Below, piece by piece: positions 22,231-51,145 of a DNA stretch of 64,000 bases (the first letter of the stretch is position 1; each line of letters opens with the position of its first letter). The DNA comes from Dudresnaya verticillata (lineage: Eukaryota). A program made the position numbers and the translations under genes. The notes beneath the pieces were generated by a model. It worked only from the letters and a program-made list of their open reading frames with translations. It was not told where the DNA came from and ran no database searches. The stretch is from contig OZ374561.1 of assembly GCA_977862235.1 (NCBI GenBank), forward strand, positions 1,612,001-1,676,000, written 5' to 3'.

Positions 22231-22372
22231 GAAGGTTCAAGACCTGTGGATAGATGAAATGGATAGATGAAAAAGAAGGTTCAAGACCTGTGGATAGATG
22301 AAATGGATAGATGAAATAGAAGGTTCAAGACACGTGGTTAGATGATATGGAAGGTTCAAGACCTTGGATAAG
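22231..22372 (+). repeat. Tandem repeat, 44-bp unit GAAGGTTCAAGACCTGTGGATAGATGAAATGGATAGATGAAAWA (2 full plus 2 partial copies)
   Basis: GAAGGTTCAAGAC at 22231, 22275, 22319 and 22350. Confidence 0.9.
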
Positions 22373-23176
22373 TTGTAGGAAATGTTGAAAACCATAGGGC
22401 ATGAGCTCTGGGAAATTGTCACAACGCGGAATAAGCAACCTCAGGCTTAGAGCCTCCACTGCGGTGGCGAAAGTGCATGCCCTAATAAAGTCGATCACGG
22501 GATAGCTGGCTCACTATGGGCGCTGTATCATCCACGATAATAATCGTCTCTAACAGGTGTCCTCGCACCAGAGCACGAATCGCCCATACAACCTCATGGC
22601 TCAGAAGCCATGACTCTTTTTGGAGGTCCCATGACCTATGAGTCCCCCGGCGCCGCTCGCCCCCGCGCTAAAAATTGAAGGAAGGAGGATAGGGTCGGGA
22701 AGAAGGGAGCGTGACTACTCCTCTCCATAGAAAGAGGGGTCTCACCCCGAATAAGCCCCGCTTGACCAGCAAGGTAGGTGCTGGCGCCAAATAGAGTTCA
22801 ACTCTACAGTATGAAACATCCTTACTGTAGAGTGACTCCTCCTGAGATGTCCGCCCCTCATTGGCTATTCCCAAGGAAGGAGGCGGATTGCACGACGAAT
22901 CAAAATTCGTGGAAGAAATATCCGCGGCACGGAGCCCCCACAGTGGCACCAGACTACAGTGGCTCCTCCAAGAACACGACGCGCACTTGCGTCATGATGC
23001 CGAGAGTACAAAGCGCTCAGTGAGCTAAGCTAATAACAGGTCGGCTCCAAGCCGGAGGTGATTCAACCAGAAGAATTACTTTACGTCAGCGGATCAACCG
23101 CTCTTGCCCAAGTAAGGCGGATTAAGGGGACGGGCGCCTAAGGCGCATGAGGGAGCAAGGGGATGAAGCAAACAAC

Positions 23177-25763: not shown

Positions 25764-26438
25764 TGTGGTGAAGTGAAAGGCACACCTGTAAGGAGAGCTG
25801 ATCAGGCAATCCCAATAAGGAGTGGTCTCACACGGCACCGGGGTGGTAGAGCTTAGTTCGTAGACCGAAGGGAGTACCTCGAGCGGCAACACCTGTAAGG
25901 AGTAAAGGGACGCAATAGACAAGGGGGACGGTACAGTGCCAGGACAGCTACACCGAGACGGAGGTAAGAGGAATCCGTGCACGGGGCTGGCGAGGGGAAA
26001 CCGTAAAGGAGTATGAGGGTAAGGCTTAGGGTAAGTCACTTTGCCCAGGGTTGCGTACCCGTTTACTGTAGGACTCGCGGTGGCCACCCATTAATATACT
26101 GGGAGATACGCCCCGCGGTCCGGCCCGTGTGGGCCAGACCCCAATGGGTCTGGTCCACTAGGTGGGTCCGGCCCTACTGGTCCCGGTCACCGTTGCGGAC
26201 ATGCTCGGCATTCTTATTGGCCGGCTGACACTACGTACTGTACAGCATGATTACAATTACCTAATTACAAATAAATCAACTACTTGACTCCTATTGGTGG
26301 TGCGCGCAGACTCCAGCAAGGCGTACAGTGCCACTGTGTCGCTGCACTCCGTTTCGGCTTTTGGCGCCAGCTCACCACTGTGCCGGGCGGGGGTCGGCTC
26401 AACCGTCGTCCGCACTCCGAAACGGCCGCTTCACCACA
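25764..26438 (-). repeat. 3' LTR of element A
   Basis: Appears identical to 36822-37496; adjacent to the PPT. Confidence 0.97.
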
Positions 26439-26457
26439 GGCCCCCCTCCTTAAATGG
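26439..26457 (-). promoter_or_regulatory. Polypurine tract of element A (CCATTTAAGGAGGGGGGCC)
   Basis: Purine-rich tract immediately 5' of the 3' LTR on the sense (minus) strand. Confidence 0.9.
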
Positions 26458-26594
26458 CGACACGTCCTCGTGCGCCCCAGCACATTTTCTACGACTCCAC
26501 TCAGGTGTACCCAACAACGGAGAGGGTCCCATCGGCACACTCCACTTCGGGCAGGTCGACCAACAGACAGGTCCAAACCGGTGTGCCGCTAGCA

Positions 26595-29327: not shown

Positions 29328-29523
29328 GCGTAGAAATGCCACTTGTCAATAAAATCTTGTGACTTTTGTGAGCCTCCATTCCACTGGCGGAGGGGAAGTG
29401 GAATAACACCACTGTGGAGTGAGCTCCGAAGTGGCGGGGGTCCCCTACACCCTACAAGGCTTTGCGTCAAGTGGGCGACCACCTCATACCAGAAGTGGTT
29501 GCTTGCTTGCCGCCGATTCACCA

Positions 29524-29670
29524 ATATGGAGTAGAGCCCCTTGGGCAAGGGTTCTGTGGTCCCAGAGTCCAGAGGTCATGCCCATTTTGTACCAACGCCA
29601 AGCCACCGATATGGAGTAGAGCCCCTTGGGCAAGGGTTCTGGCAACACGGAGTCCACGGGTCATGCCCGA
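29524..29670. repeat. 85-bp-period duplication containing hairpin AGAGCCCCTTGGGCAAGGGTTCT, between the convergent pol and antisense ORF
   Basis: ATATGGAGTAGAGCCCCTTGGGCAAGGGTTCTG at 29524 and 29609. Confidence 0.8.
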
Positions 29671-29710
29671 TTTTTCCAAATCTCCTACCGCGCGGATGAG
29701 TAGCGACTGG

Positions 29711-32700
29711 CTATCGACGTGCGGGAGTTCTGCGACGTCGAGCTGCAGCGGCTGCCGTGCGCTTTCTATTCCAATAGCGGTGTATGAAGTTTTGCGGCAA
29801 CTCCTCAGCGGGTTCATACGTATCCTGGTCTGGTGGGTAGCCGTACCAACGCACCTTGTAGGTCATGCCCGTGGGTTCTTCGCGGTGTCCCACGATCTGC
29901 TCGATGACATACTCCGTGTCGGCATCAATGGTATCCGGCATGGGGGCAGAAATACCGCCTGGAGTTTGGGGCGTTCCAGTAATACCACCTGGTGTTTGGG
30001 GTACTACTGTGGTGCCTCCCGCCTGCTGGGGCACTGTACCGTCCATGTCGGTGTGTGGCGTAACCGGCGGAGCCAATAGCGGCGCCGGTTGCACGGGAAC
30101 TCCAATTGGTACCTTAGTGATGCAATCGATGCTGATGGGAATCAGGACGCCACCCTTCTTGATAGTGACTACAGTATCCGTTGCGGTGTGCACCTCGTAG
30201 GGGCCCGTCGATCTTGGGAGGAGCTTCTTCATTTGCTCCGCAAATTCAACGACGTGGTCAGGGCCTTGACCCAATCGGTCGCGTTCCTTCCGTTCGGTGG
30301 GTCGTAAATTGCGCGGCGGGCGATCTATGTAGACTTGATCGCCACCGCGAACCACCGGTCGGAAACGCACCTTTCGGTCGAATAGGGCCTTGGACTTCAA
30401 CTGGGCTGTAGTCTGTTTGATCTGCGCCTTCTGTAGGGTATAACGCAAACGCCGCATGGTTCCCCGCTTTTGGAGTACGGGCGTCATACGCCCCTCCGTA
30501 ACGGTTTCTTCCAACTCCACAGGGGTGCCACGCACGATAATATCCGATGGGTGTCGAGTTAACACCAAGTCAAAGGGAGTAGTATCCGTAATCCGGTGTA
30601 CCTGCATATTGTAGGAGTAGGTTAACGGCTGTAGGTATAAATCCCAATCGGTGTGGTGATCCTCGACGTAGTGTCGGAGACGCTGCGCTATGGTTTTGTT
30701 AAACCGTTCGGCTTGCCCGTTGGTTTGCGGGTGGTAGGCGGCGGTCAGCAAATGCCGCACTCCGAGTAGGGCACAGACAGCGTCGAAGAACTTCGCCGTG
30801 AACTGTCTTCCATTGTCGGTGAGTACAAATTTAGGTGCGCCATACGCATACACCCAATGGTCTAAAAATGCGTTCGCCACCACGACGGCTGTAATCGTCC
30901 GTAACGGAATGCACCGTGTTAGCTTAGAAAACCGATCGGTGATGACCAGTACAAAGACATATCCCCGTTTGGTTTTCGGTAGCGGGCCCAATATGTCCGT
31001 AGCGACAAACTCCAGTGGGCCACTCGCGGGAAATAGCTTCATGAACTTCTGATGCTTGAACCGCGTGCCCTTGGTTTTGACACATGAGCGGCAACTCCGA
31101 ACGGTCTCGAATACATCGTTAGCCATATGTGGCCAATAGTAGTCTCTCCGTAAGGTGTAGTACATCTTAATTCCACCAGGGTGTCCCGACATCAAGGTGT
31201 AGTGGGCAAGATACAGGACCCTGCCGCGCATCTGTTGCGGTACCGCCTTTTGGAGTGCGCCGTCGAGGGCAGACTTGCGCACAAGAAACCCATGTCGGTC
31301 GTAGTCAAATTGTGATCAAGGGGATCCCACCGATTCGGCCTTAAGCTTGCAGAAAGTATTTGTTGCTTGTGCGGCTATGAACTCCTCACGGGTAAGGGTC
31401 TCATTGCGCATATCCTCTTGTTGGATGACCGTTTGCCGGAGTGGAGTGGGTGGTACTGTATCCTTTTCAGGCGTAGTATCCGTTTCGGTGTCTCCACTTT
31501 CAACGCCTAGGACAAGGCTGCTTGCGGCACCAGGCTGCTGGGTCTTTTTCCAATTGGTTAGTCGCACACCATGTTGCACTACACCATTAGGAGTTGATTC
31601 CATAACGAAGCAAGGAACTTCCTCATCCAATTCAGCTTTGTCAGCACCACCTGTTCGGAGTCTTGACACACCGTCTGCTAGCTGTTGCTTGATACCAGGG
31701 CGGTATTGTACTTCGAACTCAAATTCCGATAGGCGTAGGCGCCATCCTGCTAAGCGTCCAGACGCATCGGCTAAACTCAATATCCATCGTAATGCGTCGT
31801 GATCCGTACGGAGTATAAACTTTTCACCATAAAGGTAGGGGCGTAGCGTTAGCATACTCCAAACTACAGCAAGGCACTCCTTTTCAGTGGTTGTGTAGTT
31901 CTTCTCCGCATCGGTTAGGCTTCGACTCCAGTAACCCACTGGTAGATTATCTCCACTAGGTTGCTCCTGGAGAAGGACACACCCAACTTGGTAATCACAA
32001 CGCTTAGCGTCGGTATCCAATGTATACTTGAAACCATGACGGGGTAAAGCCAATATTGGAGGAGAGATTAGGTGTCTCTTTAGCTCCTCAAAGGCGTTAA
32101 ACTCCGTTTCGGTGAGAGTTCCAAACTCGAATACCAAACCCTTGCCGGTTTTCTTGTTGAGTGGCGAAGCAATGCGTGCGAAATTGGGAACGAAGCGTCG
32201 ATAGACGTTACATAATCCTAGAAAAGAGCGCAACTCCGTTTGGTTTGTAGGTGGCTTAGCCTCCTTAACGGCGAGAATATTCTTCCGTTCCACTTCCAGT
32301 TGGCCCGGGCACACTATGTGGCCCAGATACTGTACGGAAGTGTCGAAGAAGGCACACTTTGATAGTTTCAGAGTTACACCTGCGGAACGGAGTAGCGTGA
32401 GGACCTCCTTAAGGTGTTCGAATGCTCCGTGACGGTGTTAGAATATACTATCACATCATCCAGGTAGACTAGGGCAAATTGCCATTTCACCGTAGATAGG
32501 ATGATGTCAACCGCCCGTTGGAAGGTAGTCGGTGCGTTTTTGAGCCCAAAAGGCATTCTCCGGAAGCGGTATAATCCATAATGACTGGTGAAGGTAGTTT
32601 TGTCACGCTCCTCCTCGGGGATCTCTACTTTCCAGCAGCCACTATTACAATCCAGAGTGGTGAATACTGTAGCTTCTCCAAGGGAGTCGATACATTCGTC

Positions 32701-34113
32701 CATCCGGGGTAAAGGATATGAATCCCGAACGGTGACAGCGTTAAGTCGCCTGTAATCGACACAAAACTGCATGGAGCCGTCCTTTTTAGGAACGAAGACC
32801 ACAGGGCTGGCCCACTCCGAAGCGGATGGATCGATCACCTTAGCGGACAACATACGATCCACTTCTGCCTTCTCCAGCTCGCGCTGTTTATGTCCTGCCC
32901 GATATGGTGCTTGATACACCGGTTTGGCACCAGGCATTAATTCAATACGGTGTTTCGCGGCAGTTATATTTCCTAACTCGCCGTTCCACATAGTGCTGAA
33001 CTCCTCGAGGAGTGTAACCACCTTAGCGCGGAGTTTTTCATCCTTGGCACCAATATGGATGTTATGTTTCCAATCGGTGTCAGGGGCTGTAGTTGATTCC
33101 GATACGGTGTTTCCTTTGAATCCATCTTGGGGTGTAGCCTTGCTGCTTTCATTAGGAGGAGTAAAGGAATTAATATGTCCTCCCCCCTCCTTAAATGGAG
33201 GTACACCGTTAACGGTGAGTATGGCAGAGGGAGCAGCAGTAGCGAGGCCCAGGACGGTAGACTTGGGTAACCGCACCGGTTTGGGGGAAAAATTAGTCAG
33301 CCACACCTTAAAGGGTTTGTTAGGGATTATATCCATAACTCCGTTAGCCATAAGGGTGAGATGCTTATGGATGGGTTTGGGATGGTTTTGAAGAAAACAC
33401 AAACCACCGGTAGGAGTGGTGACCAATGCAAGGGATTGGGTCATAGGGGGGATAATAAGGGATTTTGCTAGTCGGAGCTTTTGCGATACCGAAGCGGATG
33501 AAACAGGGGGGCCCTGAAGAGTAGAAGCAGCCACCGTTTTGGAGTGTCTGGTTTGTCCCATTGGAGAAACCGGAGAGTGGTGATGAAAAACAACTTTCCG
33601 TGCCGGTGGGAGGATCGCCTTGACATGGCGATCAATGAAACTGGTTCCCAGGATACACGGAGCAGCGAGGTTCGCGACCACCAGGAAGTGGACTCGAGTA
33701 CGCAATTCTCCGATACGGACAAAAAGTTGAATGACACCAAGCGGGCGTATCGACCTATTGGACGCATCCCGTAAAGGTGGACTGGTAGCGGGGCGAATCA
33801 AAGACAACCAGTGGCGTGGAAGCCGTCTGGTGTTAATCAGATTTGGCCCAGCACCAGAATCCAATACGGTGATGAGAGGTAACATGAGGTCATTACTCCT
33901 TCCAACGGTAATCTGGATTTTATAATTCTGCCGTTGTAGAACACAGACAGAATCACCGGGTGGTGGAAATTCAAGGGGGATTTCTGGAACAAAATCAAGG
34001 GGGTACTCCGCAATGGTGGCGGACTGACAGTCCGGCAAAGCCCGTGTTGGTGGGCGTACCACGTCGCATTGAGGAGACGGGGACGCCCTTGCACGTCTCC
34101 TGCGACGTTTTCC
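29711..34113 (-). pseudogene. pol: Element A pol (PR-RT-RH-IN-chromodomain), frameshift near 32420 and TGA at 31316
   Basis: LDSGAGPN, YLDDV, EKECLAV, GHPGG..CRSC, DILGP, DNGRQF, QTNGQAER and EYVIEQIVGHR..YKVRWYGY. Confidence 0.95.
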
Positions 34114-36509
34114 GAGTCGGTGTGCGCCATGAGTGCCTCCTCTGCCATATCAGCTGGGGGCTCGCCATCCACACCACCATCGACAGTCAGCACCCGCGCT
34201 GGGCGTTGCTGGTAGTTGCCCGGCGGACGATTTCCCGTATTGGAGTTGGCGAAGGCCTGTCGCTTGAGGAGTAGCGCCTGATAGTTGCGTTCGTGCTCTT
34301 CCATCAGGGGACCCCTTTCGGTGTCGCTCAGATACGGACAAATAACATGGTCCGGGGAGAGGCATAAGCGACAGTAGCCGCTGCCATAGAGGCGTCGGAC
34401 ATCCGGCGAGGTGTGATCCGTCTGCTCTGCGGCGGAGGATTATTTTCCAATACGGTGTTCACCCTGTCCTGGCCGGGGAGGCGTACTGCCGTGGGGGTGT
34501 CCAATATGGGGGTGTCCAATATGGCTGGGATGCTGCCCGGTGGTTCCTTGACGGTGTGTGGCGGGACCGTAGCGGCTATCCGCCGGTCCGTAGCGGGGTT
34601 GCCGAGCTGGTGGCATCCGTGGCGCTGGTGGGCGAAGGTTGGGAGTCTGAGACGGAGTAGGGTAGACACTACTCGGTGGGGAAGAGTACGCTGTAGTAAA
34701 CGTAACCCCCGACGAGGTGCCGGCACTTCGACCCGCGTCACCTTCCAGAGCGAGCACGTGCTCCTCCGATTCAGCGGGATACTCCGAGTAGGTGTAATCC
34801 GATGGAGAACCAATTGACAGAACGCCAGAACGGCGTGACTGACTCTTAGGTTTTCCGTCGAAGACGTGCACCGCTGAGGTTTGGCGCCTGGTTGCCCGAT
34901 GGGATTCTCCAAGCCCTTTAGCGTAGCGGGTGATGGCTTGGTAATCCATATAGGGGTGTGTCGCCAGATAATTGCGCATCTGCTGACACGTTCCCGGTAG
35001 GAGTCCTTCCACAAACAGCGACTTGAGGGACCTGTCGGAGAATACTGTACCGCATCGGAGTGCCTTAGTCCAAAGTTGGTTGGAGAATTGCTCTTCCGTT
35101 AAGGCCGAAGTTTGTCGAAACGACGTTACGTCCGAATACCCTTCGGCAATCACCTCATCGGTAGCATAAGTCCTTAGCAAAAAGTTCACCACTTCGGAGT
35201 AGGTGCGAAGCATCTCTGCTTGCTCCTCGTTGACCGCCATGGTGCCGCCAGCGAGACGGGCCTGAAGCAAAGCTTCAGCCTGTCCACTTAGGAAAAACTG
35301 GAAACACCAAAGTGCGGTTCCTTCCGAAATGGAGTTGATGTTACATGCATCCTTGAACTTCGCGAGAAATCCAAGGACCGTGATGGGGTCTGTACCGTTA
35401 AAGGAGTGGGACTTCATTTGCACCTCCAGCTTTTTGCGGATGCGTCCCATATTCTGGGACAAGCTGGAGCTGTAGTATGAACTCTTTTTCTCCAGTCGGT
35501 ATGTTCGGAAATCCAGCGCCTTCACGAACCTGTCGTTCAGGGGCCGGATCACCTTTGGGAGTGGCCTGTCGACCTCTCGGTGTTTGGCGTCGTGTTTTCT
35601 GGCCCGACGCCGCTCGTCCCTATCCGTATCGGAGTAGCTCGTATCAGAGCCAGAGGAATGGGAGGAGTCATGCCCTTTTCGGCGCCTGTGGCGCGACTTG
35701 CGCTTGTTCTTCTTCCTATTTCGGTGTTGGCTATCATCAGATTCCGTACCGGAGTGTTCTTTGTCCCGTCGCGAAGCGCGTTTGCTCCGTTGCGAACGGT
35801 CACGTTCCTTATCGGAGTGGGAGTTCTTGGCCTTTCTGTCAGCACTGTCTCTACCACTCCGGTCTTGGTTTTTCTTGGAGTCACCATCGGAGTGCTCACT
35901 GCCTCTACGCGAAGCCACCGGCACGGTGATACGTTCCCCCGCAGGCACTTCTGCGGGTACAGGGACCGTACTCCGATTCGGTTGGGGTTGCTGTGTTGGA
36001 TCCAATTCGGTGTATTGAGCTTGGGTAGGTAACCCAGGGGCTTCCGCTGTCCTTACCGGATTGGGCGGAAACACCTGAGCGGGGATTTCTGGCAAATACG
36101 TCGTTTCTCCCTTGACCGGGAAGTTGTTCCGTATCGGTGTAGGTCCAGAAAAGGGCTGTTCCTTGGGTCCCGGTAGGGGTTGTCCGGGGATGAGCATCTG
36201 CTCGATCTCCGACGCCTGACGCTCCTGACGGATGAGCGTCTGCACCAACTCCGGAAGGTGTTTCTCCAGGTAGGAGCTGACAATTACCGGAACGGTGTCG
36301 GCGAGCGTGGTCTCAACCTCCTTGACCATGTTGGGTTGCACCTCTATACGGAGATGCTCCAACACCCGTGGAACGACCTCCGAAAGTATCCAATGGAGAC
36401 GATTGGAGTCACCTGGCTTGGAAACACCCTTGCGGGAAGTGTCTGAACCAGGTCGGGATCTAGAGAGCTTACTGGCTACACCTTTAAGGAGTTCTTCGGG
36501 GTTCTCCAT
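34107..36509 (-). pseudogene. gag: Element A gag (premature TAA at 34440), with CX2CX4HX2C knuckle
   Basis: Capsid-like region (FNGTDPITVLGFLAKFKDAC) homologous to B gag; the frame continues past the stop to CRLCLSPDHVIC. Confidence 0.9.
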
Positions 36510-36797
36510 ACCGGGGTTCAGGTCGGCAGCATCGCCACGGCGTGTTCTCGTGGCTGAGGCTACCTCCGGTTCGGTGGGCTCACTGCGGCGTGTTCTCGCA
36601 GTAGAGGGAACCTCCGGGACGGTGTTGTCGTCACCGCGGCGTGATCTTCTATTCCATGTGTTCTTCTATTCTTAGGTTACCAAAATGGAGTCAACGAGTG
36701 TTTTGCCTTGTCCTGCCTTTACACCAATACGGAGTTGTCACAAAGCTGAACTCCTACCGAAGCGGAGTCCAACGGAGATTCTTCTACCTTGACGGTC

Positions 36798-36815
36798 TTC
36801 TAGGTCGGGAGACCA
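36798..36815 (-). promoter_or_regulatory. Primer binding site of element A (TGGTCTCCCGACCTAGAA; tRNA-Tyr-like)
   Basis: 18-mer starting TGG just inside the 5' LTR; identical in element B. Confidence 0.85.
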
Positions 36816-36821
36816 AAAAGA

Positions 36822-37496
36822 TGTGGTGAAGTGAAAGGCACACCTGTAAGGAGAGCTGATCAGGCAATCCCAATAAGGAGTGGTCTCACACGGCACCGGG
36901 GTGGTAGAGCTTAGTTCGTAGACCGAAGGGAGTACCTCGAGCGGCAACACCTGTAAGGAGTAAAGGGACGCAATAGACAAGGGGGACGGTACAGTGCCAG
37001 GACAGCTACACCGAGACGGAGGTAAGAGGAATCCGTGCACGGGGCTGGCGAGGGGAAACCGTAAAGGAGTATGAGGGTAAGGCTTAGGGTAAGTCACTTT
37101 GCCCAGGGTTGCGTACCCGTTTACTGTAGGACTCGCGGTGGCCACCCATTAATATACTGGGAGATACGCCCCGCGGTCCGGCCCGTGTGGGCCAGACCCC
37201 AATGGGTCTGGTCCACTAGGTGGGTCCGGCCCTACTGGTCCCGGTCACCGTTGCGGACATGCTCGGCATTCTTATTGGCCGGCTGACACTACGTACTGTA
37301 CAGCATGATTACAATTACCTAATTACAAATAAATCAACTACTTGACTCCTATTGGTGGTGCGCGCAGACTCCAGCAAGGCGTACAGTGCCACTGTGTCGC
37401 TGCACTCCGTTTCGGCTTTTGGCGCCAGCTCACCACTGTGCCGGGCGGGGGTCGGCTCAACCGTCGTCCGCACTCCGAAACGGCCGCTTCACCACA
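36822..37496 (-). repeat. 5' LTR of element A
   Basis: 675 bp, matches 25764-26438. Confidence 0.97.
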
Positions 37497-39765: not shown

Positions 39766-40440
39766 TGTGGTGAAGTGAGCCGTGGCGCACACGCGGCACG
39801 CCGACGGCGAGCCAACCGTAACGGATGATGTGGCAATACGCCACGCTGATGATCTGGCAACGTGTAACCGTGTCGGATGTCGTGCGCATTGCTGTACGCC
39901 GGTACGCATTGCTGTACAGCAGTGAAGCGCACCAACCATATCGGAGTATTTGTAGTATTTATTCTTTATTTTTAGTGAGTATCTGTACAGTATGTAGAGT
40001 AGTGCGCCAGCTAATGAGAATGCTGCGCATGTCCGTGTCGGAGATTGGGACCAGCAGGGCCGATTCCACCATGGGCCCAGACCACTAGGGTCTGGCCCCC
40101 ACGGACCGGATCGCTGCGTGCCACCCTGACTTGTATATCAGGGCGGCACCGCAGCGGCTCCTACGGTAAACGGGTAAGCAACCTTAGCCCAATCCTTTAC
40201 GGTTTTCCCCGCGCCGAGCCCGTTGCGGTCTACCACCACCACCGTTACGGAGTCCGTCCCGGCACTTGTACCACCCCCTTGTCTGTTGCTTCCCAATATC
40301 CGTCTCGGTTAGCCGCTCGCTGTTCTCCCGTCTCGGTGCGAACTGCTCTACCACCCCGTGGAGGTAGTGTTGCTCTCGTCCGTTAAGGAAAGTCAGGCCA
40401 GCTGTCCGTCTCGGAGTTCGTGGGTTTTCACTACACCACA
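39766..40440 (+). repeat. 5' LTR of element B
   Basis: TGTGGTG...CACCACA; matches 50471-51145. Confidence 0.97.
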
Positions 40441-40445
40441 TCTTT

Positions 40446-40463
40446 TGGTCTCCCGACCTAGAA
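40446..40463 (+). promoter_or_regulatory. Primer binding site of element B (TGGTCTCCCGACCTAGAA)
   Basis: Starts 5 nt after the 5' LTR; identical to A's PBS. Confidence 0.85.
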
Positions 40464-40588
40464 CACCGTCACGGTTGGAAGAAACAGCCATCGAAATCCC
40501 CTACGGTAGGAATTCGGCTGTACCGACAACCCGTTACGGAATATTGGATAGACAAGCAAGAACAACCGTTGTGTTCCGTTAAGGTATC

Positions 40589-43068
40589 ATGAAGAACGAA
40601 GAACACGCAGACCCTCCCGTTACGGAACCTAAAGCGGGTGACACTACCCCCGCTGCGCGCAGTCTGCGCAGTGAAGGAGGTGAAATCCGTTCCGGAGGGG
40701 AGAACCCAGAAGACATCCTAAAGGGTGCTGCTGGTAAAGCTCCCCGTTCCCGTGTCGGATCAGACGCCTCGAAGAAGGCAGCTCCGCAACCCAAGCCGGA
40801 ATCCCATCGGGTCCACTGGGTCCTGTCGGAGGTCCTTCCTAGGGTGTTAGAGCATCTCCGATTGGAAGTACAACCTGGAATGGTAAAAGAGGTGGAGATA
40901 TCCCTCTCGGAAACTGTTCCGTCTTTGGTTAATTCCTATCTGGAGCAGCACCTTCCTCGGATAGTGCAAGCTTTGATCCTACAGGAAAAGGTGGCCGCCG
41001 AGCTCGAGAGCCAGATTGCTCCCGGAATGGCAAGGCCTCCCGCTACGGAAGCTTTTACTGAGCAACCACCGTTACGGAATGAATTCCCGGTCGAGGGAAG
41101 AACGCAGCAGCCGCAATAACCCCCCGTTATGGGATTGCCACCGGGCACAGTACCCTCTGGGCCAGTGCCACCGGCTCCCGTGACGGATTCTCAACATCAA
41201 CAAGCCCCTACGGGACCAACACACACTCAGCCACCGTTACGGTATTCTCCTGGACACGTAGACATGCCTACGCCAGGGCGCTATCAGCAAGAGCGCTATA
41301 CCGTTCCGCTTCGATCAGGTGGAGGCAGCGACCATCTCAGCGATGCGTCCAGCTCACCCTATCCGAGTCGGAGGAACGGTCGAGGTCGGCATAAACGAGA
41401 TGCCCGACACTCCCGCTCTGACCCTCCCCGTCGGTCGCACATGGGCGACCACACCCAGCGACGACGCCACCAATCCGGTATGGAATCCAATGAGAGCAGC
41501 TCAGAGGATAGCCAACACCGCCGCCGCAAGAGGAGAAACCGAAGATCGCGGAAACGCGAAAAAAGGCATGACTCCTCTACCTTTACGGATTCAGACTCAG
41601 AGAGTTCTTCCGTAACGGATAGAGAGAATAGGCACCGGGCCAGAAAACACGGTGCCAAATCCGGAAAGGTTAAGGTAGTCCGGCCGCTACATGACAAGTT
41701 TCTCAAGGCGCTGGACTACCGCACCTACCGATTGGATAAGAGGAGTAAGACCTACGGCTCTAAGTTCTCACAGAACATGAGCCGTATACGGAAGAAACTC
41801 GACGTGCAGATGTCGTCCCATACATTCGATGGGACGGACCCTATTACCGTCTTGGGATTTCTCGCTAAGTTCCGTGACGGTTGTAACATCAACGGCATCA
41901 CCGAAGGGGTTGCCGTCTGGTGCTTCCAGTTTTTCCTTAAAGGACAGGCCGAAGCCCTTCTACAGGCTAGGCTTGCTGGAGGTACCATGGTGGTTGACGT
42001 GGAGCAGGCCGAGATGCTCCGCACATATTCCGAGGTGGTGAACTTTTTATTGAGAACCTACGCTACGGATGAAGTGATTACTGAAGCCTATACGGATGTC
42101 AGCAACTTCAGGCAAACATCCGCCATGACGGAAGAGCAGTACTCGAACCAGCTCTGGGCCAAGGCTCTCCGTTGCGGTACAGTATTTTCCGATCGGGCAT
42201 TGAAGTCACTGTTCGTTGAAGGACTCCTACCGGGTACTCGTCAACAGATGAGAAATTATCTAGCGACGCATTCCCAGTTGGATTACCAGGCCATCACTCG
42301 CTATGCGACTGGCCTGGGTCAGTCCCATCGGGCAGCTCGACGCCAAACCGTTCCGGCTCACGTCTTTGATGGGCGCACTAAAGCGCGCCCGTCTAAGGTG
42401 TTGTCGCTGGATTCCGTATCGGATGTACACTATGAGTCGCAAGGGAATATTTCCGCTACGGATAATCAAGTGATAGCCGTCGAGGGAGGCCACGGTGCCG
42501 CTACGGGTACGAGCACGGGGGTTACCTTTTCTACCCGTACTCCTCGCCCCCGCAAAGCGTCCACCCTACTCCGCCCAGGATGCCACGCGCACAAGGTCCC
42601 CCCTATGGTGGACCTCGCCCGGCTCCTGGCCCCCAACAGCAGCCGAGTCACCGTTACGGAAATAATGCCCACGATGGGCGAGGACAGCAGCAACAAGCAC
42701 CTCCGGTACGGGATGAGTCGGATCCTCGGGTCCGACGCCTTTACGGAAGTGGTAACTGTCGCATCTGCCTTTCGCCAGAGCACGTTGTTTGCCCATGGAT
42801 ACATGACTCCAATCGGGTTAGGCTTATGGAAGAGCGCGAGCGCAACTTCCAGAAGCACTACCCTGTAGGTCGCAGGTTCGTAGTAGGAACCAGTTCGAAT
42901 CCGCAAGGGAATCGGGGCAAACCGCAAACGCCCCCTCCGCAACGGAATGCCCCGATACTATCGGTGGAGGACCATGACGGAGTGGAACTCGCAGAATTGC
43001 GCGAGCCCATGGAGGCGGATCCGACTGGTGCAACCTTGAATTCGGAAAACTCAAGGGGGGATGCGTAA
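40589..43068 (+). pseudogene. gag: Element B gag (TAA at 41117-41119, frameshift near 42537)
   Basis: Homologous to A gag throughout; knuckle CRICLSPEHVVC. Confidence 0.9.
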
Positions 43069-46000
43069 GGGCGCCGCCATCCCCGCCTCACGGCGTTCCA
43101 CCTCTCGCGAGTGTGGACCGGCCAGGGGATCGGCGAGGTACCGTTACGGAACTCCCATTGGCTTATCAGACCAATGATACTATCTGCTTTATGCAACATC
43201 AAAATTACAAGATGCAAATTACCGTGGGACGGACAGATAGCGTGATGCTTCCTTTAATCTCCGTCTTGGACTCTGGCGCTGGGCCCAATCTCATTAGTGC
43301 CAGGCGCCTTCCGCGCCAATGGCTCCCACTCATACACCCAGCAACCAGTCCTCCATTACGGGATGCGTCTAATCGCGCTATACGCCCTCTTGGTCAGATC
43401 CAACTTTTCGTCCGTATCGGAGAGCTCCGTGCTCGCGTCCATTTTCTAGTGGTCGCGAACTTGGCGGCTCCCTGTATTTTGGGAACTACCTTCACCGACC
43501 GCTACGTGAAGGCAATCCTCCCACCGTTACGGAAAGTTGTTTTTCATCATTACCCACCGGTATCCCTTGTTGGTCAAGCCAAAAATCCGAAGACGGGTAA
43601 CGCCGCAACCCTACAGCCCTCATCTCTATCCGCCGCTACGGTTTCTCAGAAAATTCGTTTAGCAAAATCTACTCTTATTCCCCCTATGACTCAAACCACC
43701 GTAACGGTTAATACCCCCACGGGTGGGTTATGCTTTCTACAAAATCATCCTAAGCCGGCTTTTAAGCACCTTACGTTAATGGCTAATGGTATTATGGATG
43801 TTGTACCTAACAAACCGTTTCGGATCTGGGTCTCTAATTTTTCTAACAAGCCGGTACGGTTGCCCAAATCTACTGTCGTGGGCCTCGCTACTGCTGCCCC
43901 TTCTGCTATTTTTACCGTTGACGGTATACCTCCATTTAAGGAGGGGGGAGGAATTATTCAATCATTTAATTCTAACCCTACCTCCGAAAAGGCCAGCAGC
44001 ATCTCCCCTCAGGACAAGGAAGTAAGCAAACCCGTAACGGAAAATACAAATACTACCGACTGGAAGGATCAAGTCCAGATCGGCACAGAAGAAGCATCGC
44101 TCCGTAAACGGATTTTAACCCTACTCGAGGAATATAAGTCGATGTGGAGTGGCGATCTTGGCAACATTACAGCTGCCAAGCACCGCATCGAGTTAACTCC
44201 CGGAGCGAAGCCAGTATATCAAGCCCCATACCGTGCCGGACATAAGCAGCGAGATCTCGAAAAGACAGAGAATGATCGCATGCTTTCCGCTAAGGTAATT
44301 GAACCAGCCTCATCGGAGTGGGCCAGCCCCGTGGTGTTCGTTCCAAAAAAGGACGGCACCATGCGGTTCTGTGTTGACTATAGAAGGCTCAATTCCGTAA
44401 CGGTTAGGGACTCATATCCCTTACCCAGGATGGATGAGTGCATAGATTCCCTTGGGGAAGCTACTGTATTTACCACCCTGGATTGCAATAGCGGATATTG
44501 GCAAGTCGAGATTCCGGAAGAGGAAAGGGACAAAACTACCTTTACTAGTCATTTTGGCTTATACCGTTTTCGGAGAATGCCATTCGGATTGAAAAATGCA
44601 CCGGCAACCTTCCAACGGGCAGTGGATATAATCCTTTCTACGGTTAAATGGCAATTTGCCCTCGTCTACCTAGACGACGTAATTGTCTACTCAAAAACCG
44701 TTACGGAACATTTCCACCACCTGAAGGAAGTTCTTACGCTTTTACGATCCGCTGGGGTAACGTTGAAATTGTCAAAGTGTGACTTCTTCAACGCGTCTGT
44801 ACAATACCTAGGGCATGTTATCCGTCCCGGAAAATTAGAAGTGGATAATCGGAATATCCAATCCGTTAAGGTCGCGAAGCCGCCGACTAACCAAACGGAA
44901 TTGCGATCCTTCCTGGGAATGTGCAACGTGTATCGTCACTTTGTACCCAACTTCGCTCGGATTTCAGCACCGCTAAATAAGAAAACCGGCAAGGGTTCAC
45001 CCTTTGAGTTTGGAATATTATCCGATACGGAATATGAAGCCTTCGAGGAATTGAAGAGACGCCTTATCTCTCCACCTATATTGGCTCTACCCCGTCACGG
45101 ATATAAATATACGTTGGACACTGACGCATGTGACCACCAAGTCGGCTGTGTCCTTCTGCAGGAACAACCGAATGGCGATCACCTCCCTATTGGATATTGG
45201 AGCCGAAGCCTCACCGATGCGGAGAAAAATTATACGACAACCGAAAAGGAATGCTTAGCCGTGGTCTGGAGCATGTTAACACTCCGACCCTACCTTTACG
45301 GTGACAAGTTTATTCTCCGAACGGATCACGATGCCCTGCGGTGGATCCTGAACCTCGCAGACTCATCTGGTCGCCTAGCCAGGTGGAGGCTCCGCCCATC
45401 GGAATTTGAATTCGAGGTGCAATACCGTCCTGGAATTAAGCATCAGCTCGCCGATGGGATGTCGCGACTCCGAACGGGTGGCGGTGACGATAGACCTTTG
45501 GATGAAGAAATACCTTGCTTTGTCGCCGAAAACACCGTCGACGGATTATATGAGCATGGAGTATATTTAACCGATTGGGCCACCTCACAAGAAACCGCTA
45601 CGGAAAATAACGTAATATTCGCCGTGGAGCCCGCCAGTGGGAGTGCATCCGCCTCCCCCGACAAGCCCGACGCAATACCGTCACGGTTTACTGTAATCCA
45701 AGAATCCGACGTCAAGGATGAGACAATTACCAGGGAGGAGTTCCTCGAAGCGCAAGCCAGAGACTCTTTCTGTCGTCTCAAAGCCGATACGGTAGGCTCC
45801 CCTGGATCCCAGTTTGACAATGACCGTAACGGATTCTTGGTGCGCAAGTCCCAATTGGATGGTGCTCTGCAGAAGGTGGTGCCAAGCGAACTCCGTGGAC
45901 GGGTATTGTATTTATCCCACTACACCCTGATGTCGGGTCACCCAGGTGGAATTAAGATGTATTACACACTCCGACAGGATTATTATTGGCCTCATATGGC

Positions 46001-47387
46001 CAACGATGTATTTGAATCCGTTCGGACGTGTCGCTCCTGCGTGAAGACAAAGAGAACCCGCTTTCGGAACCAAAGATTTATGAAGCTTTTCCCCGCTAGC
46101 GGACCTTTGGAGTTTGTCGCTATCGACATTCTTGGACCACTTCCGAAGACAAAACGGGGTTATGTCTACGTTTTGGTAATAACCGATCGGTTCTCGAAGC
46201 TGACGCGCTGTATTCCGTTACGGACAACGACAGCCGTTGTGGTGGCTAACACCTTTCTGGACTTTTGGGTGTACGCCTACGGCGCACCCCAATTTGTCCT
46301 AACCGATAACGGACCGCAGTTTACTGCTAAGTTCTTCGACGCGGTATGTTCCTTACTCGGAGTCAGGCACCTGCTCACCGCTGCCTACCATCCGCAGACA
46401 AATGGGCAAGCTGAGCGATTTAATAAGACGATCGCTCAGCGTTTGCGCCATTACGTTGAGGATCATCACTCCGATTGGGATCTGTACCTGCAACCGTTGA
46501 CGTATGCGTACAACATGCAGGTACACCGTATGACGGAAACAATGCCATTTGATTTGGTACTGACACGCCACCCATTGGACATTGTTGTACGAGGGGCTCC
46601 TGTCGAGCATCAAGAAACCGTTACGGAAGGGCGTATGACCCCGGTGCTACATTAGCGGAGTACCATGCGCCGTTTACGGTATGCGCTCCAAACAGCGCGC
46701 ACGAAGCAAACAGTGGCTCAGCAAAAATCCAAGGCACTGTTTGACCGTAAGGTGCGCTTTAGGCCCATAATCCGTAACGGAGATCAAGTCTACGTCGACA
46801 GGCCGCGCCATAACTTGCGGCCTGCCGAACGCCGTGAACGGGACCGATTGGAAGGCAAGCCGGATGATGTAGGCGAGGTGGCTCAGGAAATGAAGAAACT
46901 CCTTCCGAGAGCCACGGGGCCTTACGAAGTGGAATCCGCAACGGAACATGTTGTTACAATCCGAAAGGAAGGGGTATTGATCCCCGTAAGTATTGATCGC
47001 ATCACGAAGGTCCCGATCGGAGTTGCGGTTCAGCCGGCACCCTTAACAGTGCCGCCTGTCACGCCATCAACCGTCTACGGAGAAGTAGTGCCACCTCCAG
47101 AAGGTACTACAGTAATACCTCCTTCTGAAGGTACTACTCCCTCCGCGACGGAACCACTACAAGCCGATACGGAATATGTGATCGACAAGATTGTCGGTCA
47201 CCGCGACGAACCTACTGGGATGACATACAAAGTCCGCTGGTATGGTTACCCTCCGGATCAGGACACTTTTGAGCCCGCGGAGGAGTTGCCGCAGAATTTC
47301 ATCTACCGATATTGGAAGCAAAAGAAAAAGACATCCGCTAAGGGTAAGCCACGGCGACGTGCTAATCCAACACGTCACTCACCGTAA
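43044..47387 (+). pseudogene. pol: Element B pol (PR-RT-RH-IN-chromodomain), single TAG at 46653-46655
   Basis: 1180-aa ORF plus an in-frame 240-aa ORF with all canonical motifs; the TAG aligns with a Lys in A. Confidence 0.95.
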
Positions 47388-47487
47388 CGGACAGTTGGGA
47401 TGCTGGGGTGTCAGAATACACAATGTTTATCGCAAGCTAAGATCGAGGCATAATGGAAACCGTTAAGGAGAGCGTCGCAACGGACCT

Positions 47488-50337
47488 CTAAGAGTTACGT
47501 CGACGCCGCTTCGGAGCAGGGGCAACTGTATCTTCCTCGTTGCTCCCCTGACCCGTTCGTAAGTCGGGTTCCCCAGTCGGATCCGATTGGAATACGTGCT
47601 GCGTATTGTCTCCCAAGACGCGAATCGCACTATCCATGCGCCGACGCTGACGACGGACCACCGAGCGGAGCTGAATTACCTGTTCCATTAGCCCCTCCGC
47701 TAAGGTTAGCGCTTCCTGAACGGATCCTGGCAATGGGAAGCGCTGCGTACGGCAAATGCCTCGCAGCACCTGTAACCCACTTTCCGTAGCGGCTAGATGA
47801 GCCGGAACCGTAACGGGGGGCTCCTCTTCTTCTTGAAACTCCACCTTCAGGGAGATCGACGGCTTGTCCCTAACCCCGGCTTCGAGTGAATGCTCCGTTG
47901 AGGAAACCACCAATACGGATGGTCCCGACTCGGGTGAAGGTACGTCCTTCCGCAGCGGTGGATCCGTGTCCTTATCTGGCGAGGCGATATCGCTTTTCCG
48001 TAACGGTTCACGACTTGGCGCGAGAACCGCGGGCTTGTCTCCAGTTGCCCCAACACTTGGGCGCTTTGCAGCCACTGCCGATACGGTGATCGGTGCCTCA
48101 CTCACCGCTGGTGTGGGAGTGGGCGCCGACAGCGGAGCACTTGGCAGGGGCGGTTCCGCGGCGGCAGGCATTTGCGTCGCAGGAGACAGTGCCGCCGGTA
48201 CAGTATCCGGCGCCACTTCCGAAACGGTCTGCTCCTTTGAGACTCCCTCCTCGGACGGTGCCGCAAGCTTGGGCACCGTCATAGTCGGCGCAACCACGCC
48301 TATGGGCGTTGGGGCCTTATCCAATACGGGAGTAGTAGTCTCACGAGCCATATCACGCGAAGTGGGTGTCGCAGCCACCGGAGGGATTGGAGCGGGTGTC
48401 TTCTCGCTACCCGCTGCCATTGAGGCCACGGGCATGACCTCCTCCTGTTCTTCCAAGAAGGGGTCAGCCTCCTGCTGCCTCACCGAAACGGAATCGCGCG
48501 GGTCGATTGTACGCGAACGCCCCGCTGCCTCCTGACAGCTCCCCCACTCTTCAGCCCCGTCCAAACCGTCACGGTACGCATCCCTTGGTGCTTGGCGAGG
48601 CGCATTGCCCCGATGGGCCTGCACCTCTAAGGGCAACCATTCCGAACGCGGGTCTTCTCGATGAAGGAAATATGGTTCTCCCACTCCGGGCCTAAGCGGG
48701 GGCACCGATAGGACACGGTCCTCATCCCAACTATACCCCAAGAAGCCCGGAGTGCGTTGCCAATCCTGCTCTCCGTGTACGGATAAAAGACTCTCAACCC
48801 GATGGAGCGGGTACGCCGACCCCGTCACCAAATCGGCTACACCGACCTGGCGAATTAGAGCAATCACCATCACGGGAAGTTGAAAGATACGACCACAGTC
48901 CCCTCCGGGTAGGTCAGCATCATCACGCGGGAAGCAGCGCCAGTCGGATAACTTGGTATTGCACCGCACTCCGTAGTAGGCAACTTGGAGCCACGAAAAT
49001 AGCACCAGCATTGCCCACTCCGATCGGAAGATGCGCCAAAGCACATCGAGTTGATCTTGTATAGGGGGACGCTCTCCGTTCGGATGCTCGCGATTCCACT
49101 CCCGCTCCGTGAGCAGGTCCGCAGAGAAGTACGCCACCAAAGAAGGCGTCGGCACGGATAACCAACGAGTTACCTCGTATTTATCCCACCACGACGGGGC
49201 TGTGAGGTAGAGCTCACGTCGCATCCGATACGGAAGGTGGAAGAACTCCTTGGTATTCCACGTGTGCAAGATGGGGGCCCCCACGTGCATTCCGTCTCGG
49301 TAACGCGTCCGCAATCGGTGTTCCGTCGCCGCGTCGTCTTTCCACCCGTCGGCATAGCGGAACCAATACACCGACTGGTCATACGGAGGGTCAAAGCAGA
49401 TAAACTGCACTCCGATCGGTGCACCCCGTAGACGGAATGCCTTGGTCAACAAACGGCTCACCTTCGCGGTGTACCCGACTTCCCCGTGACAACGGTACCA
49501 CAACAAATCCGAAACGGTAGTGGTGCGCTCTTGGCAGTAGCTGTGCACCCATCGGCTTTGCGACACAAACGCCCGCCGGTTCGGTACGAAACCAATTCGC
49601 TGGTTTGCCTTGAAGGGCTGCTCCGAAACGGCTTGGTAGCGTCGCGCTTCCAGAACGGTTGGGTAACCCTCGATGAAGTGTGACACTGTCATCGGTGGTG
49701 TCACCTTCGCCCGTTCCGCATCGGATCTCGCCGGGCGCCCCGCGCGATGGTCAAAGTGGTGCCCCGGCCAATATCCGCTCGGGGCAGGACCCTCACCGCT
49801 ACGGGTACGCTCCATCGGCATCCAAGAGCCGGTCGTTGGCGTCCTGCTCCGCACTGGCACTCGCGACCGTTTCGGAATATTGCCTGACGTATATGGGCTT
49901 GCACCCAGGTTCCGCATCGGGGTTGAGACTGGGGTCGATGGCGTCCGTAACGGGATCGCGGGTAAGTCCGCCAAGTTGAGCTCCTGCCCACCACGTCGGA
50001 TCTCCTCGTCGTCATCCTTGGCCACATCTTCTCCGCGACGGTGTGTCGATACATTCCATGACGGAGTGCTCCTTGTGGCTGAGCCAGCCGCAAAACGATT
50101 CGGATCGTAGACAGACCAGCCGCAGCCCGCCGATAGTGCCTGTGACGGTTCCGCTGCGGTAACATCCACGCGACCACTCGTCGTGCGTGGTGCCACATCC
50201 GCCGAGGCCGAAGCCGGCGCTTGCGTCGAAGCATCCGTAACGGTTCGCGCGCCCTGCGCCCCGGTCGTGGAAGCAGCGCGGGAACGCCGAGTCGGTTGAA
50301 AGGGCGACGGTGAGGGCTTAGTCTTCTCCCCTGTCAT
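47488..50337 (-). CDS. Element B antisense ORF, intact (~949 aa from the conserved Met); unknown, probably nuclear, protein
   Basis: Uninterrupted; ~350-aa Trp-rich core conserved with A and C; P/T/S/A-rich linker, C-terminal helical region and PKRRRR. Confidence 0.85.
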   Translation of the reverse strand: MTGEKTKPSPSPFQPTRRSRAASTTGAQGARTVTDASTQAPASASADVAPRTTSGRVDVTAAEPSQALSAGCGWSVYDPNRFAAGSATRSTPSWNVSTHRRGEDVAKDDDEEIRRGGQELNLADLPAIPLRTPSTPVSTPMRNLGASPYTSGNIPKRSRVPVRSRTPTTGSWMPMERTRSGEGPAPSGYWPGHHFDHRAGRPARSDAERAKVTPPMTVSHFIEGYPTVLEARRYQAVSEQPFKANQRIGFVPNRRAFVSQSRWVHSYCQERTTTVSDLLWYRCHGEVGYTAKVSRLLTKAFRLRGAPIGVQFICFDPPYDQSVYWFRYADGWKDDAATEHRLRTRYRDGMHVGAPILHTWNTKEFFHLPYRMRRELYLTAPSWWDKYEVTRWLSVPTPSLVAYFSADLLTEREWNREHPNGERPPIQDQLDVLWRIFRSEWAMLVLFSWLQVAYYGVRCNTKLSDWRCFPRDDADLPGGDCGRIFQLPVMVIALIRQVGVADLVTGSAYPLHRVESLLSVHGEQDWQRTPGFLGYSWDEDRVLSVPPLRPGVGEPYFLHREDPRSEWLPLEVQAHRGNAPRQAPRDAYRDGLDGAEEWGSCQEAAGRSRTIDPRDSVSVRQQEADPFLEEQEEVMPVASMAAGSEKTPAPIPPVAATPTSRDMARETTTPVLDKAPTPIGVVAPTMTVPKLAAPSEEGVSKEQTVSEVAPDTVPAALSPATQMPAAAEPPLPSAPLSAPTPTPAVSEAPITVSAVAAKRPSVGATGDKPAVLAPSREPLRKSDIASPDKDTDPPLRKDVPSPESGPSVLVVSSTEHSLEAGVRDKPSISLKVEFQEEEEPPVTVPAHLAATESGLQVLRGICRTQRFPLPGSVQEALTLAEGLMEQVIQLRSVVRRQRRRMDSAIRVLGDNTQHVFQSDPTGEPDLRTGQGSNEEDTVAPAPKRRRRNS

Positions 50338-50451
50338 GGTGGGAGAAGCGCGCACGAAGGAGGAGGAAAAGTTGAGCACGATACCGTATCGGTTGTGTGC
50401 GGGTGTGGAAGCAAAGGTCATCCGTGACGGTGGGCGCCCGAAGACGTGGCG

Positions 50452-50470
50452 CCATTTAAGGAGGGAGGTC
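50452..50470 (+). promoter_or_regulatory. Polypurine tract of element B (CCATTTAAGGAGGGAGGTC)
   Basis: Immediately 5' of the 3' LTR. Confidence 0.9.
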
Positions 50471-51145
50471 TGCGGTGAAGTGAGCCGTGGCGCACACGCG
50501 GCACGCCGACGGCGAGCCAACCGTAACGGATGATGTGGCAATACGCCACGCTGATGATCTGGCAACGTGTAACCGTGTCGGATGTCGTGCGCATTGCTGT
50601 ACGCCGGTACGCATTGCTGTACAGCAGTGAAGCGCACCAACCATATCGGAGTATTTGTAGTATTTATTCTTTATTTTTAGTGAGTATCTGTACAGTATGT
50701 AGAGTAGTGCGCCAGCCAATGAGAATGCTGCGCATGTCCGTGTCAGAGATTGGGACCAGCAGGGCCGATTCCACCATGGGCCCAGACCACTAGGGTCTGG
50801 CCCCCACGGACCGGATCGCTGCGTGCCACCCTGACTTGTATATCAGGGCGGCACCGCAGCGGCTCCTACGGTAAACGGGTAAGCAACCTTAGCCCAATCC
50901 TTTACGGTTTTCCCCGCGCCGAGCCCGTTGCGGTCTACCACCACCACCGTTACGGAGTCCGTCCCGGCACTTGTACCACCCCCTTGTCTGTTGCTTCCCA
51001 ATATCCGTCTCGGTTAGCCGCTCGCTGTTCTCCCGTCTCGGTGCGAACTGCTCTACCACCCCGTGGAGGTAGTGTTGCTCTCGTCCGTTAAGGAAAGTCA
51101 GGCCAGCTGTCCGTCTCGGAGTTCGTGGGTTTTCACTACACCACA
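50471..51145 (+). repeat. 3' LTR of element B
   Basis: Matches 39766-40440, except for example TGCGG versus TGTGG at the start. Confidence 0.97.

What the first reader, a model, noticed from the sequence alone, without database searches (positions are those of the whole stretch)
39766..51145. Palindromic 9-mer CCGTWACGG is massively over-represented across element B, even inside pol
Seen: about 25 exact copies by eye, at 39816, 40242, 40531, 40617, 41069, 41234, 41610, 42651, 43141, 43524, 43699, 44032, 44395, 44698, 45824, 46215, 46618, 46772, 47382, 47808, 47998, 49945, 50235, 50521 and 50947. Chance expectation in 11.4 kb is roughly 0.1 at uniform base composition. The motif occurs in all three reading frames (PLR, xVT, RNG/RYG), so it is not a codon effect. 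At several sites B differs from A in amino acid exactly where the motif appears: PPLRK vs PPARK, NSVTV vs NAVTV, DRNG vs DRHG, IRNGD vs VRGGD. Inference: selection for dispersed binding sites of a dimeric DNA-binding protein, plausibly the antisense-ORF product. This would be analogous to the VANC/motif anti-silencing system of Arabidopsis VANDAL DNA transposons, but in an LTR retrotransposon.
Basis: partly seen in the sequence, partly recalled or inferred. Interest (0 to 1): 0.92.

Follow-up and report, generated by a model that had tools for sequence, protein, structure and literature searches.

The report
Retrotransposon studded with selected DNA palindromes
A jumping gene, likely from a red seaweed, carries about ninety copies of one short palindromic DNA motif that selection keeps even inside its protein-coding genes; these are likely landing sites for an uncharacterised protein that the element itself encodes on the opposite strand, and would help it escape silencing by the host.

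Summary
There are 25 exact CCGTWACGG in element B, 3 in its sister element A and none elsewhere in the window. The real motif is wider, CCG-N3-CGG: 92 copies in B and 50 in A, background outside. It survives codon-preserving shuffles (65 vs 10.9 in B's ORFs). It is strand-symmetric and shows no hairpin covariation, so it reads as a double-stranded DNA site for a dimer. It is under purifying selection: synonymous positions inside sites are identical between A and B in 20 of 22 cases, against 205 of 534 elsewhere. A and B prefer different flanks and centres. Both are chromodomain-bearing Ty3/Gypsy elements with an antisense ORF. That ORF belongs to an unnamed family (237 hits, some from Gracilariopsis), has a confidently predicted core with no structural match, and ends in an NLS-like tail. 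Across the antisense-bearing clade, 37 of 58 loci are enriched in short perfect palindromes, against 2 of 88 outside, but these covary like hairpins, and 7 antisense-bearing loci lack them. Binding by the antisense protein and anti-silencing are inferred, not shown (about 45%). It would work like VANC; no sign of VANC homology was found.

The parts
39766..51145 (+). Element B, full-length Ty3/Gypsy LTR retrotransposon with chromodomain integrase; 5-bp target duplication TCTCC
39766..40440 (+). B 5' LTR (675 bp, TG...CA); 10 CCG-N3-CGG sites (14.8/kb)
50471..51145 (+). B 3' LTR, 3 differences from the 5' LTR; 9 sites
39816..51119 (.). Array of 92 CCG-N3-CGG sites in B, 25 of them CCGTWACGG; preferred form WWCCGTWACGGWW
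40589..43068 (+). B gag, interrupted by a stop at 41117-41119 and by a frame change further 3'; 18 sites
43191..47387 (+). B pol (RT, RNase H, integrase, chromodomain), one stop at 46653-46655; 24 sites, 9 of them the exact 9-mer
47488..50421 (-). B antisense ORF, 977 aa, uninterrupted, no Pfam family; 26 sites
48652..49779 (-). Conserved core of the antisense protein (aa 215-590), predicted fold pLDDT 91, pTM 0.91, no structural match found
47587..47805 (-). C-terminal helix-loop-long-helix segment (about aa 873-945), shared by 9 family members
47491..47520 (-). NLS-like C-terminal tail PAPKRRRRNS (NLS pattern recalled)
25764..37496 (-). Element A, sister family, identical 675-bp LTRs, target duplication GTCGC; 50 CCG-N3-CGG sites, preferred form ACWCC[G/A/T]-N3
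26454..29327 (+). A antisense ORF, one stop at 28050-28052, core 54% identical to B's
17730..25446 (+). Element C, degenerate relative used as in-genome control: distant antisense homolog (23177-25446, minus strand), no CCG-N3-CGG excess, generic short-palindrome excess

Best explanation
Element B and its sister A carry dispersed CCG-N3-CGG palindromes that selection keeps across LTRs and coding DNA, and these are likely binding sites in the integrated double-stranded copy for a dimer of the element's own antisense-encoded protein, which would coat the element and keep it out of host silencing. Shown: the motif, its confinement to A and B within the window, its double-strand symmetry, its conservation at synonymous positions, its different flanks and centre in A and B, and a conserved antisense protein family confined to one retrotransposon clade. 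Predicted: a folded core with no structural match found, and a nuclear localisation tail. Inferred: that this protein is the binder, that it acts as a dimer, that protein and motif drift together family by family, and that the outcome is relief from DNA methylation or H3K27me3.
For: Enrichment beyond codon content: B 65 vs 10.9 (max 21), A 36 vs 8.5 (max 17), C 1 vs 2.1 in 1000 shuffles. DNA-type readout: only C..G at the two outer pairs (83 vs about 9, compensatory pairs at background); at the third pair mismatches are tolerated symmetrically, 23/23 and 14/14 in A; centre TAA 12, TTA 11 on the sense strand; no flank covariation. Selection: 16 of 26 A sites are identical in B vs an 11.9% frame-matched control; four-fold synonymous positions 20 of 22 vs 205 of 534. 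Family-specific preference in one genome: ACWCCG half-sites 22 of 92 in A vs 4 of 166 in B; CCGT 33 of 92 vs 101 of 166. The antisense core is the most diverged aligned segment (55% vs 62% gag, 71-80% pol). NLS-like K[KR]x[KR] in the last 25 aa in 15 of 60 long members vs 5 of 360 control windows. All antisense-bearing loci fall in one RT clade (support 1.0), where 37 of 58 loci have at least 1.5-fold short perfect palindromes vs 2 of 88 outside. Sites are densest in the LTRs (13-15/kb vs 5.7/kb in pol). Red algae silence TEs by DNA methylation and H3K27me3 (PMC8566409, passages).
Against: No binding, expression or chromatin data. The core has no recognisable DNA-binding fold and is near neutral in charge (47 K+R, 43 D+E). 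None of 16 distant antisense-bearing loci has a gapped motif better than a corrected p of about 0.05, and C has none in the same ORF test. Seven antisense-bearing loci (L009, L014, L024, L031, L037, L074, L077) show no palindrome excess either. In closer relatives (L084-L086) and in C and L002 the palindromes covary like hairpins, which a simple homodimer does not explain, and A and B lack that generic excess (1.06, 1.27). The clade-level association rests on a few independent lineages. The rest of the host genome could not be examined, so the background is only about 41 kb of flanks, including element C.
Confidence: 0.45

Rival explanations
1. The sites are bound by a host dimeric transcription or chromatin factor that the A/B lineage has recruited along its whole length; the antisense protein is unrelated to them.
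For: The fixed motif is confined to A and B while the antisense family is far wider. A and B share the CC-N5-GG core. Everted CGG repeats are a known class of site for Zn2Cys6 factors (recalled, not from a call).
Against: A and B differ significantly in flanks and centre within one genome. C and the host flanks show no excess. Palindrome excess of other kinds tracks the antisense-bearing clade.
Confidence: 0.2
2. The antisense protein binds the sites, but on the unintegrated cDNA, to protect it, escort it to the nucleus or aid integration, and not to undo chromatin silencing.
For: Same sequence evidence as the best explanation. Sites cover the element end to end with no strong periodicity. Nuclear-import and regulatory roles are proposed for plant antisense ORFs (PMC7264820, passages). 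Hairpin-like covariation in relatives would suit DNA that is transiently single-stranded.
Against: Many relatives have the ORF without detectable sites, which fits an optional counter-defence better than a core replication step. Sites are densest in the LTR promoter region.
Confidence: 0.15
3. Another element-encoded protein (Gag or integrase) reads the palindromes, for example as dispersed packaging or assembly signals in RNA.
For: Four-bp stems with four-base loops, with compensatory changes, are selected in L084-L086.
Against: No G-T wobble excess (1.0-1.4-fold vs 3-4-fold for perfect pairs), and loops occur equally in both orientations (TTCA 10, TGAA 10 in L086). In B the site is predicted to pair with itself in only 9 of 83 sense-strand windows, and compensatory pairs are absent.
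Confidence: 0.12
4. A neutral mutational process (template switching, methylation-linked bias or repeat expansion) made the palindromes.
For: Generic perfect palindromes are clade-wide.
Against: Sites are conserved far above the synonymous background. Arms do not extend outward in L084/L086 (0.21 and 0.19 vs 0.25). Flanks are unrelated between sites, no internal repeat family was found in B, and there is no CpG depletion.
Confidence: 0.04

Closest known systems
VANC anti-silencing proteins and their motifs in Arabidopsis VANDAL Mutator-like DNA transposons (PMC5735166, passages)
   Same: Would be a TE-encoded accessory protein recognising an 8-9 bp motif accumulated in its own family, with motif and protein differing between related families.
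   Different: LTR retrotransposon, not a DNA transposon. The motif is palindromic and dispersed singly through coding DNA under synonymous constraint, whereas VANC motifs are non-palindromic and sit in non-coding tandem repeats. No sequence or structural match to VANC or plant-mobile-domain proteins was found. Binding and demethylation are untested here.
Antisense ORFs between pol and the 3' LTR in plant Ty3/Gypsy elements: Retand TRP28 (PF04195), Grande gene23, RIRE2 (PMC11963269 and PMC7264820, passages)
   Same: Same position and orientation; nuclear and DNA-binding roles proposed, function unknown.
   Different: Retand is a non-chromovirus lineage of flowering plants, while these elements carry a chromodomain. 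No TRP28 hit. The passages read report tandem repeats, not a dispersed selected motif.
Plavaka accessory gene PAG3 with adjacent inverted-repeat arrays in red algae (10.1101/2025.02.11.637652, section 8 read)
   Same: Red-algal TE accessory protein proposed to bind inverted repeats in its own element.
   Different: DNA transposon; ParB plus 2OG-oxygenase protein; tandem arrays beside the gene. [quoted passage not shown]

Membership tests
Ty3/Gypsy LTR retrotransposon with chromodomain integrase | LTRs bounded by TG...CA with a 5-bp target duplication | tested here: met
Ty3/Gypsy LTR retrotransposon with chromodomain integrase | Domain order RT, RNase H, integrase, then chromodomain | tested here: met
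   (RVT_1, RT_RNaseH, Integrase_H2C2, rve; Chromo in the in-frame continuation)
VANC/VANDAL anti-silencing system | Host element is a Mutator-like DNA transposon | tested here: not met
   LTR retrotransposon
VANC/VANDAL anti-silencing system | Accessory protein homologous to VANC / MAIN plant-mobile-domain proteins (PMC13547354, passages) | tested here: inconclusive
   No such Pfam family in the window ORFs, 71 homologs or 7 locus ORFs; no fold match. Whether a VANC structure is in the libraries could not be checked.
VANC/VANDAL anti-silencing system | [quoted passage not shown] | tested here: not met
   65 of the 83 sites (one LTR counted) lie in ORFs, singly, with unrelated flanks
VANC/VANDAL anti-silencing system | Family-specific motif differing between related families | tested here: met
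   A vs B preference; absent from C
VANC/VANDAL anti-silencing system | Protein binds the motif and removes DNA methylation in trans | not testable with these tools
   needs EMSA, DAP-seq or ChIP and a methylome
Retand/Grande antisense ORF (TRP28) | Antisense ORF between pol and the 3' LTR | tested here: met
   13 of 16 JGI loci with a hit have it antisense and downstream of pol
Retand/Grande antisense ORF (TRP28) | Transposase_28 domain, non-chromovirus lineage | tested here: not met
   no such Pfam hit; chromodomain present
Zn2Cys6 (GAL4-type) DNA-binding protein as identity of the antisense product (family features recalled) | Conserved six-cysteine cluster | tested here: not met
   no cysteine column above 37% conservation in 118 sequences

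The most novel reading that the evidence does not exclude
A clade of red-algal retrotransposons runs its own self-recognition system. An antisense protein of unknown fold marks the element's DNA through short palindromes written into the coding sequence. In most lineages it reads symmetry itself (a 4-bp inverted repeat around a 4-base core, any arm sequence), and in the A/B lineage it has hardened into a fixed sequence. This would be a sequence-specific anti-silencing system in a retrotransposon, independent in origin from VANC, and a new mode of DNA recognition.
Probability: 0.3. Interest if true: 0.92.

Novelty: new variant of a known kind. Interest (0 to 1): 0.75.

Why it matters
[quoted passage not shown] Here an antisense protein comes with a precise candidate target, two sister families with different preferences, and a negative-control element in the same window, so one in-vitro binding experiment can decide the link. 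Whatever the binder, a selected cis-code of about 90 sites laid over gag and pol, and a clade-wide excess of short palindromes, are shown from sequence. I found no account of either in 10 literature searches. Repbase, subscription journals and bioRxiv supplements were not seen and may already note the ORF.

Tried and rejected
No whole genome is held, so there is no genome-wide background. No sequencing run was listed for pol plus the antisense ORF; this is no evidence on expression. Word-seeded protein searches for the antisense core found nothing or only 2 known hits; the full HMMER scan found the family. The ESM Atlas gave no usable hit. PDB sequence search gave only weak matches, best E 0.007. 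Foldseek on PDB and BFVD gave no match at E<=0.001 for the core or, on PDB, for the C-terminal segment. VIA-align best Z was 2.7 over 48,161 chains; this does not prove the fold is new. Homodimer prediction for the core returned no verdict (the alignment was not used and the fold was uncertain). No tRNA in the window and no Rfam match in 25000-52000. No convincing helical or nucleosome periodicity; spacing is slightly more even than random in A (p=0.01) but not clearly in B (p=0.07). C's apparent motif GGC-N6-GCC (9 vs 2.5, a pattern picked after looking) was dropped as a sequence motif: its flanks covary (10 of 13 vs 4.5) and it fails the corrected ORF test. L002's CCG-N3-CGG (20 vs 6.7) also covaries (15 of 26 vs 6.9) and is not significant after correction. 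Outgroup motif hits L052, L064, L107, L116, L125 and L152 are mostly clustered repeats, while L147's is dispersed. IMG/VR gave 0 and 5 loci, none with the antisense gene. Two papers were not held. Four look-ups of earlier findings returned one unrelated note.
Full report
Setting. The window holds two young full-length Ty3/Gypsy elements. A is 25764-37496 on the minus strand (identical LTRs, target duplication GTCGC). B is 39766-51145 on the plus strand (LTRs with 3 differences, target duplication TCTCC). A degenerate relative, C, lies at about 17.7-25.4 kb. B's pol has RT, RNase H, integrase and a chromodomain. A and B each have breaks in gag or pol; B's antisense ORF (47488-50421, 977 aa) is uninterrupted and A's has one stop. 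The host is probably a red alga. This is an inference: the only named cluster among the 29 antisense-family clusters looked up is Gracilariopsis chorda. No whole genome is held.

Observation. All 25 exact CCGTWACGG are present in B, with 3 more in A and none elsewhere; chance is 0.32 per window. The true motif is CCG-N3-CGG: 92 copies in B and 50 in A, against 3-19 at the other spacings from 0 to 15, and 11 in the remaining 41 kb. Shuffling synonymous codons 1000 times gives 10.9 in B's ORFs (observed 65, maximum 21), 8.5 in A's (observed 36, maximum 17) and 2.1 in C's (observed 1). Density is 13-15/kb in the LTRs and leader, 7 in gag, 6 in pol and 5-14 in the antisense ORF.

What kind of signal. 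At the two outer pairs only C..G is enriched; compensatory pairs are at background. At the third pair mismatches are tolerated and mirror each other exactly in A (23/23, 14/14), with no preference for G-T. Flanks and inner positions do not covary. The centre is TAA 12 times and TTA 11 times on the sense strand, and RNA folding pairs the site with itself in only 9 of 83 windows. This is the signature of two independent half-sites in double-stranded DNA, that is, a dimeric binder (inference).

Selection. A and B are 58-73% identical in DNA over the aligned ORFs. Yet 16 of 26 A sites and 16 of 38 B sites have identical cores in the other element, against 11.9% for frame-matched controls. Four-fold synonymous positions inside A's site cores are identical in B in 20 of 22 cases, against 205 of 534 elsewhere. 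Sites are therefore maintained, and the rest have turned over. The amino-acid cost is modest (p=0.027 between A and B; none against 52 relatives). The two families have diverged in preference: ACWCCG half-sites 22 of 92 in A vs 4 of 166 in B, CCGT 33 of 92 vs 101 of 166.

The candidate binder. The antisense core belongs to a family of 237 representatives at E<=0.001. It has no Pfam match in the window ORFs. Among 71 homologs scanned, hits were weak and mostly coiled-coil; the one hit at a curated cut-off is in P0263, a doubtful member. Conserved residues are mostly Arg, Glu, Asp, Trp, Tyr and Pro, with no cysteine cluster. AlphaFold2 with 118 sequences gives pLDDT 91 and pTM 0.91; no structural match was found. 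A helix-loop-long-helix segment near the C-terminus is shared by 9 members. An NLS-like K[KR]x[KR] ends 15 of 60 long members, against 5 of 360 control windows (pattern recalled). The core is the most diverged aligned part of A vs B (55%). It is near neutral in charge, so nothing in it independently shows DNA binding.

Relatives. Pol-based scans gave 78 JGI loci, 78 loci among contigs filed in prokaryote assemblies, and 5 IMG/VR loci. The antisense family was found in 16 of the first set (13 antisense and downstream of pol, 3 on the plus strand) and in 2 of the others. Many contigs end too soon to tell. In an RT tree of 157 tips (loci with more than 280 aligned residues) all antisense-bearing loci, with A, B and C, fall in one clade of 62 with support 1.0. 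Of the 146 tips long enough to score, 37 of 58 inside the clade have at least 1.5-fold excess of perfect 4-bp inverted repeats with 3-6 base spacers, against 2 of 88 outside. Kin share traits, so this is a handful of lineages, not 58 tests. L084 and L086 have CTC-N6-GAG at 23 vs 3.2 and 20 vs 2.5; L085 has 16 vs 4.7, not significant after correction. These units are 12 bp, do not extend outward, occur in both orientations, show little G-T excess, are conserved between L084 and L086 (22 of 71 vs 9%, 3 compensatory), but covary in their arms. Against my reading: no distant antisense-bearing locus of 16 has a fixed motif near A/B strength; 7 lack any palindrome excess; and A and B lack the generic type.

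Mechanism. Most likely (0.45), an antisense transcript from the 3' end makes a nuclear protein whose core binds CCG-N3-CGG as a dimer at about 90 places along the integrated element and keeps it active against DNA methylation or H3K27me3, both reported on red-algal TEs (PMC8566409, passages). The sequence-level steps are shown; expression, binding, dimer formation and chromatin effect are inferred. Rivals: a host factor (0.2), the same protein acting on unintegrated cDNA (0.15), Gag or integrase reading the palindromes (0.12), neutral mutation (0.04).

Comparison. It would work like VANC, which binds a 9-base motif and demethylates its own family, with motifs in non-coding tandem repeats (PMC5735166, passages). 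It is not filed as a VANC system: a different element class, a different motif layout, and no homology found. It shares position and orientation with the plant antisense ORFs of Retand and Grande, whose function is unknown (PMC11963269, PMC7264820, passages), but lacks TRP28. A red-algal parallel has been proposed for Plavaka PAG3 (10.1101/2025.02.11.637652, passages and section 8). PMC13547354 and PMC12859917 were seen as passages; neither passage set describes such a system in a retrotransposon. Ten searches found no description of this motif or family. Repbase, subscription papers and preprint supplements were not seen.

Verdict. The feature is real, larger than reported, selected, and part of a clade-wide palindrome trait. 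The link to the antisense protein is the best guess and is directly testable. New variant of a known kind; interest 0.75.

Noticed in passing
window 12204-12737 (-): ORF with a weak N6_N4_Mtase hit (E 2.8e-4); it may be a fragment of a Plavaka-type accessory gene like PAG2 described.
   Followed up: no
window 5483-6331 (-): DDE_Tnp_4 (Harbinger-type) transposase fragment; short repeats AAAACCTA cluster at 3127-3232 and 10593-10860, possibly subterminal repeats of a DNA transposon.
   Followed up: no
window 52482-54869 (+): 795-aa Sel1-repeat protein, probably a host gene 1.3 kb from element B.
   Followed up: no
window 17730-25763: Element C: broken pol, distant antisense homolog, 2.4-fold excess of short perfect palindromes; element A is inserted just upstream of C's antisense ORF; no LTR pair was found for C.
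   Followed up: partly
window 22218-22380 and 29511-29680: Short tandem arrays (44-bp unit in C, 85-bp unit in A) between the end of pol and the antisense ORF; B has none there.
   Followed up: no
L084, L085, L086 (in G001) and the clades of L016/L026/L030 and L022/L023/L033: Selected 12-bp perfect palindromes with variable arms and, in L084/L086, a TTCA/TGAA core, 3-4-fold enriched through coding DNA on both strands. Unexplained; a finding in its own right.
   Followed up: partly
L003:5505-7580, L020:9179-10360, L022:4346-5476: Antisense-family homolog on the same strand as pol, or upstream of it; may belong to neighbouring elements or show a rearrangement.
   Followed up: no
L147: Outgroup Ty3 locus with a dispersed CCG-N1-TTC motif (27 vs 8.1), outside the antisense-bearing clade.
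   Followed up: no
L084-L161: 78 eukaryotic retrotransposon loci lie in contigs filed under prokaryote genome assemblies, evidently host contamination.
   Followed up: no
window 2029-2742 (-): 237-aa ORF with a weak AbiJ_NTD3 hit below the curated cut-off.
   Followed up: no
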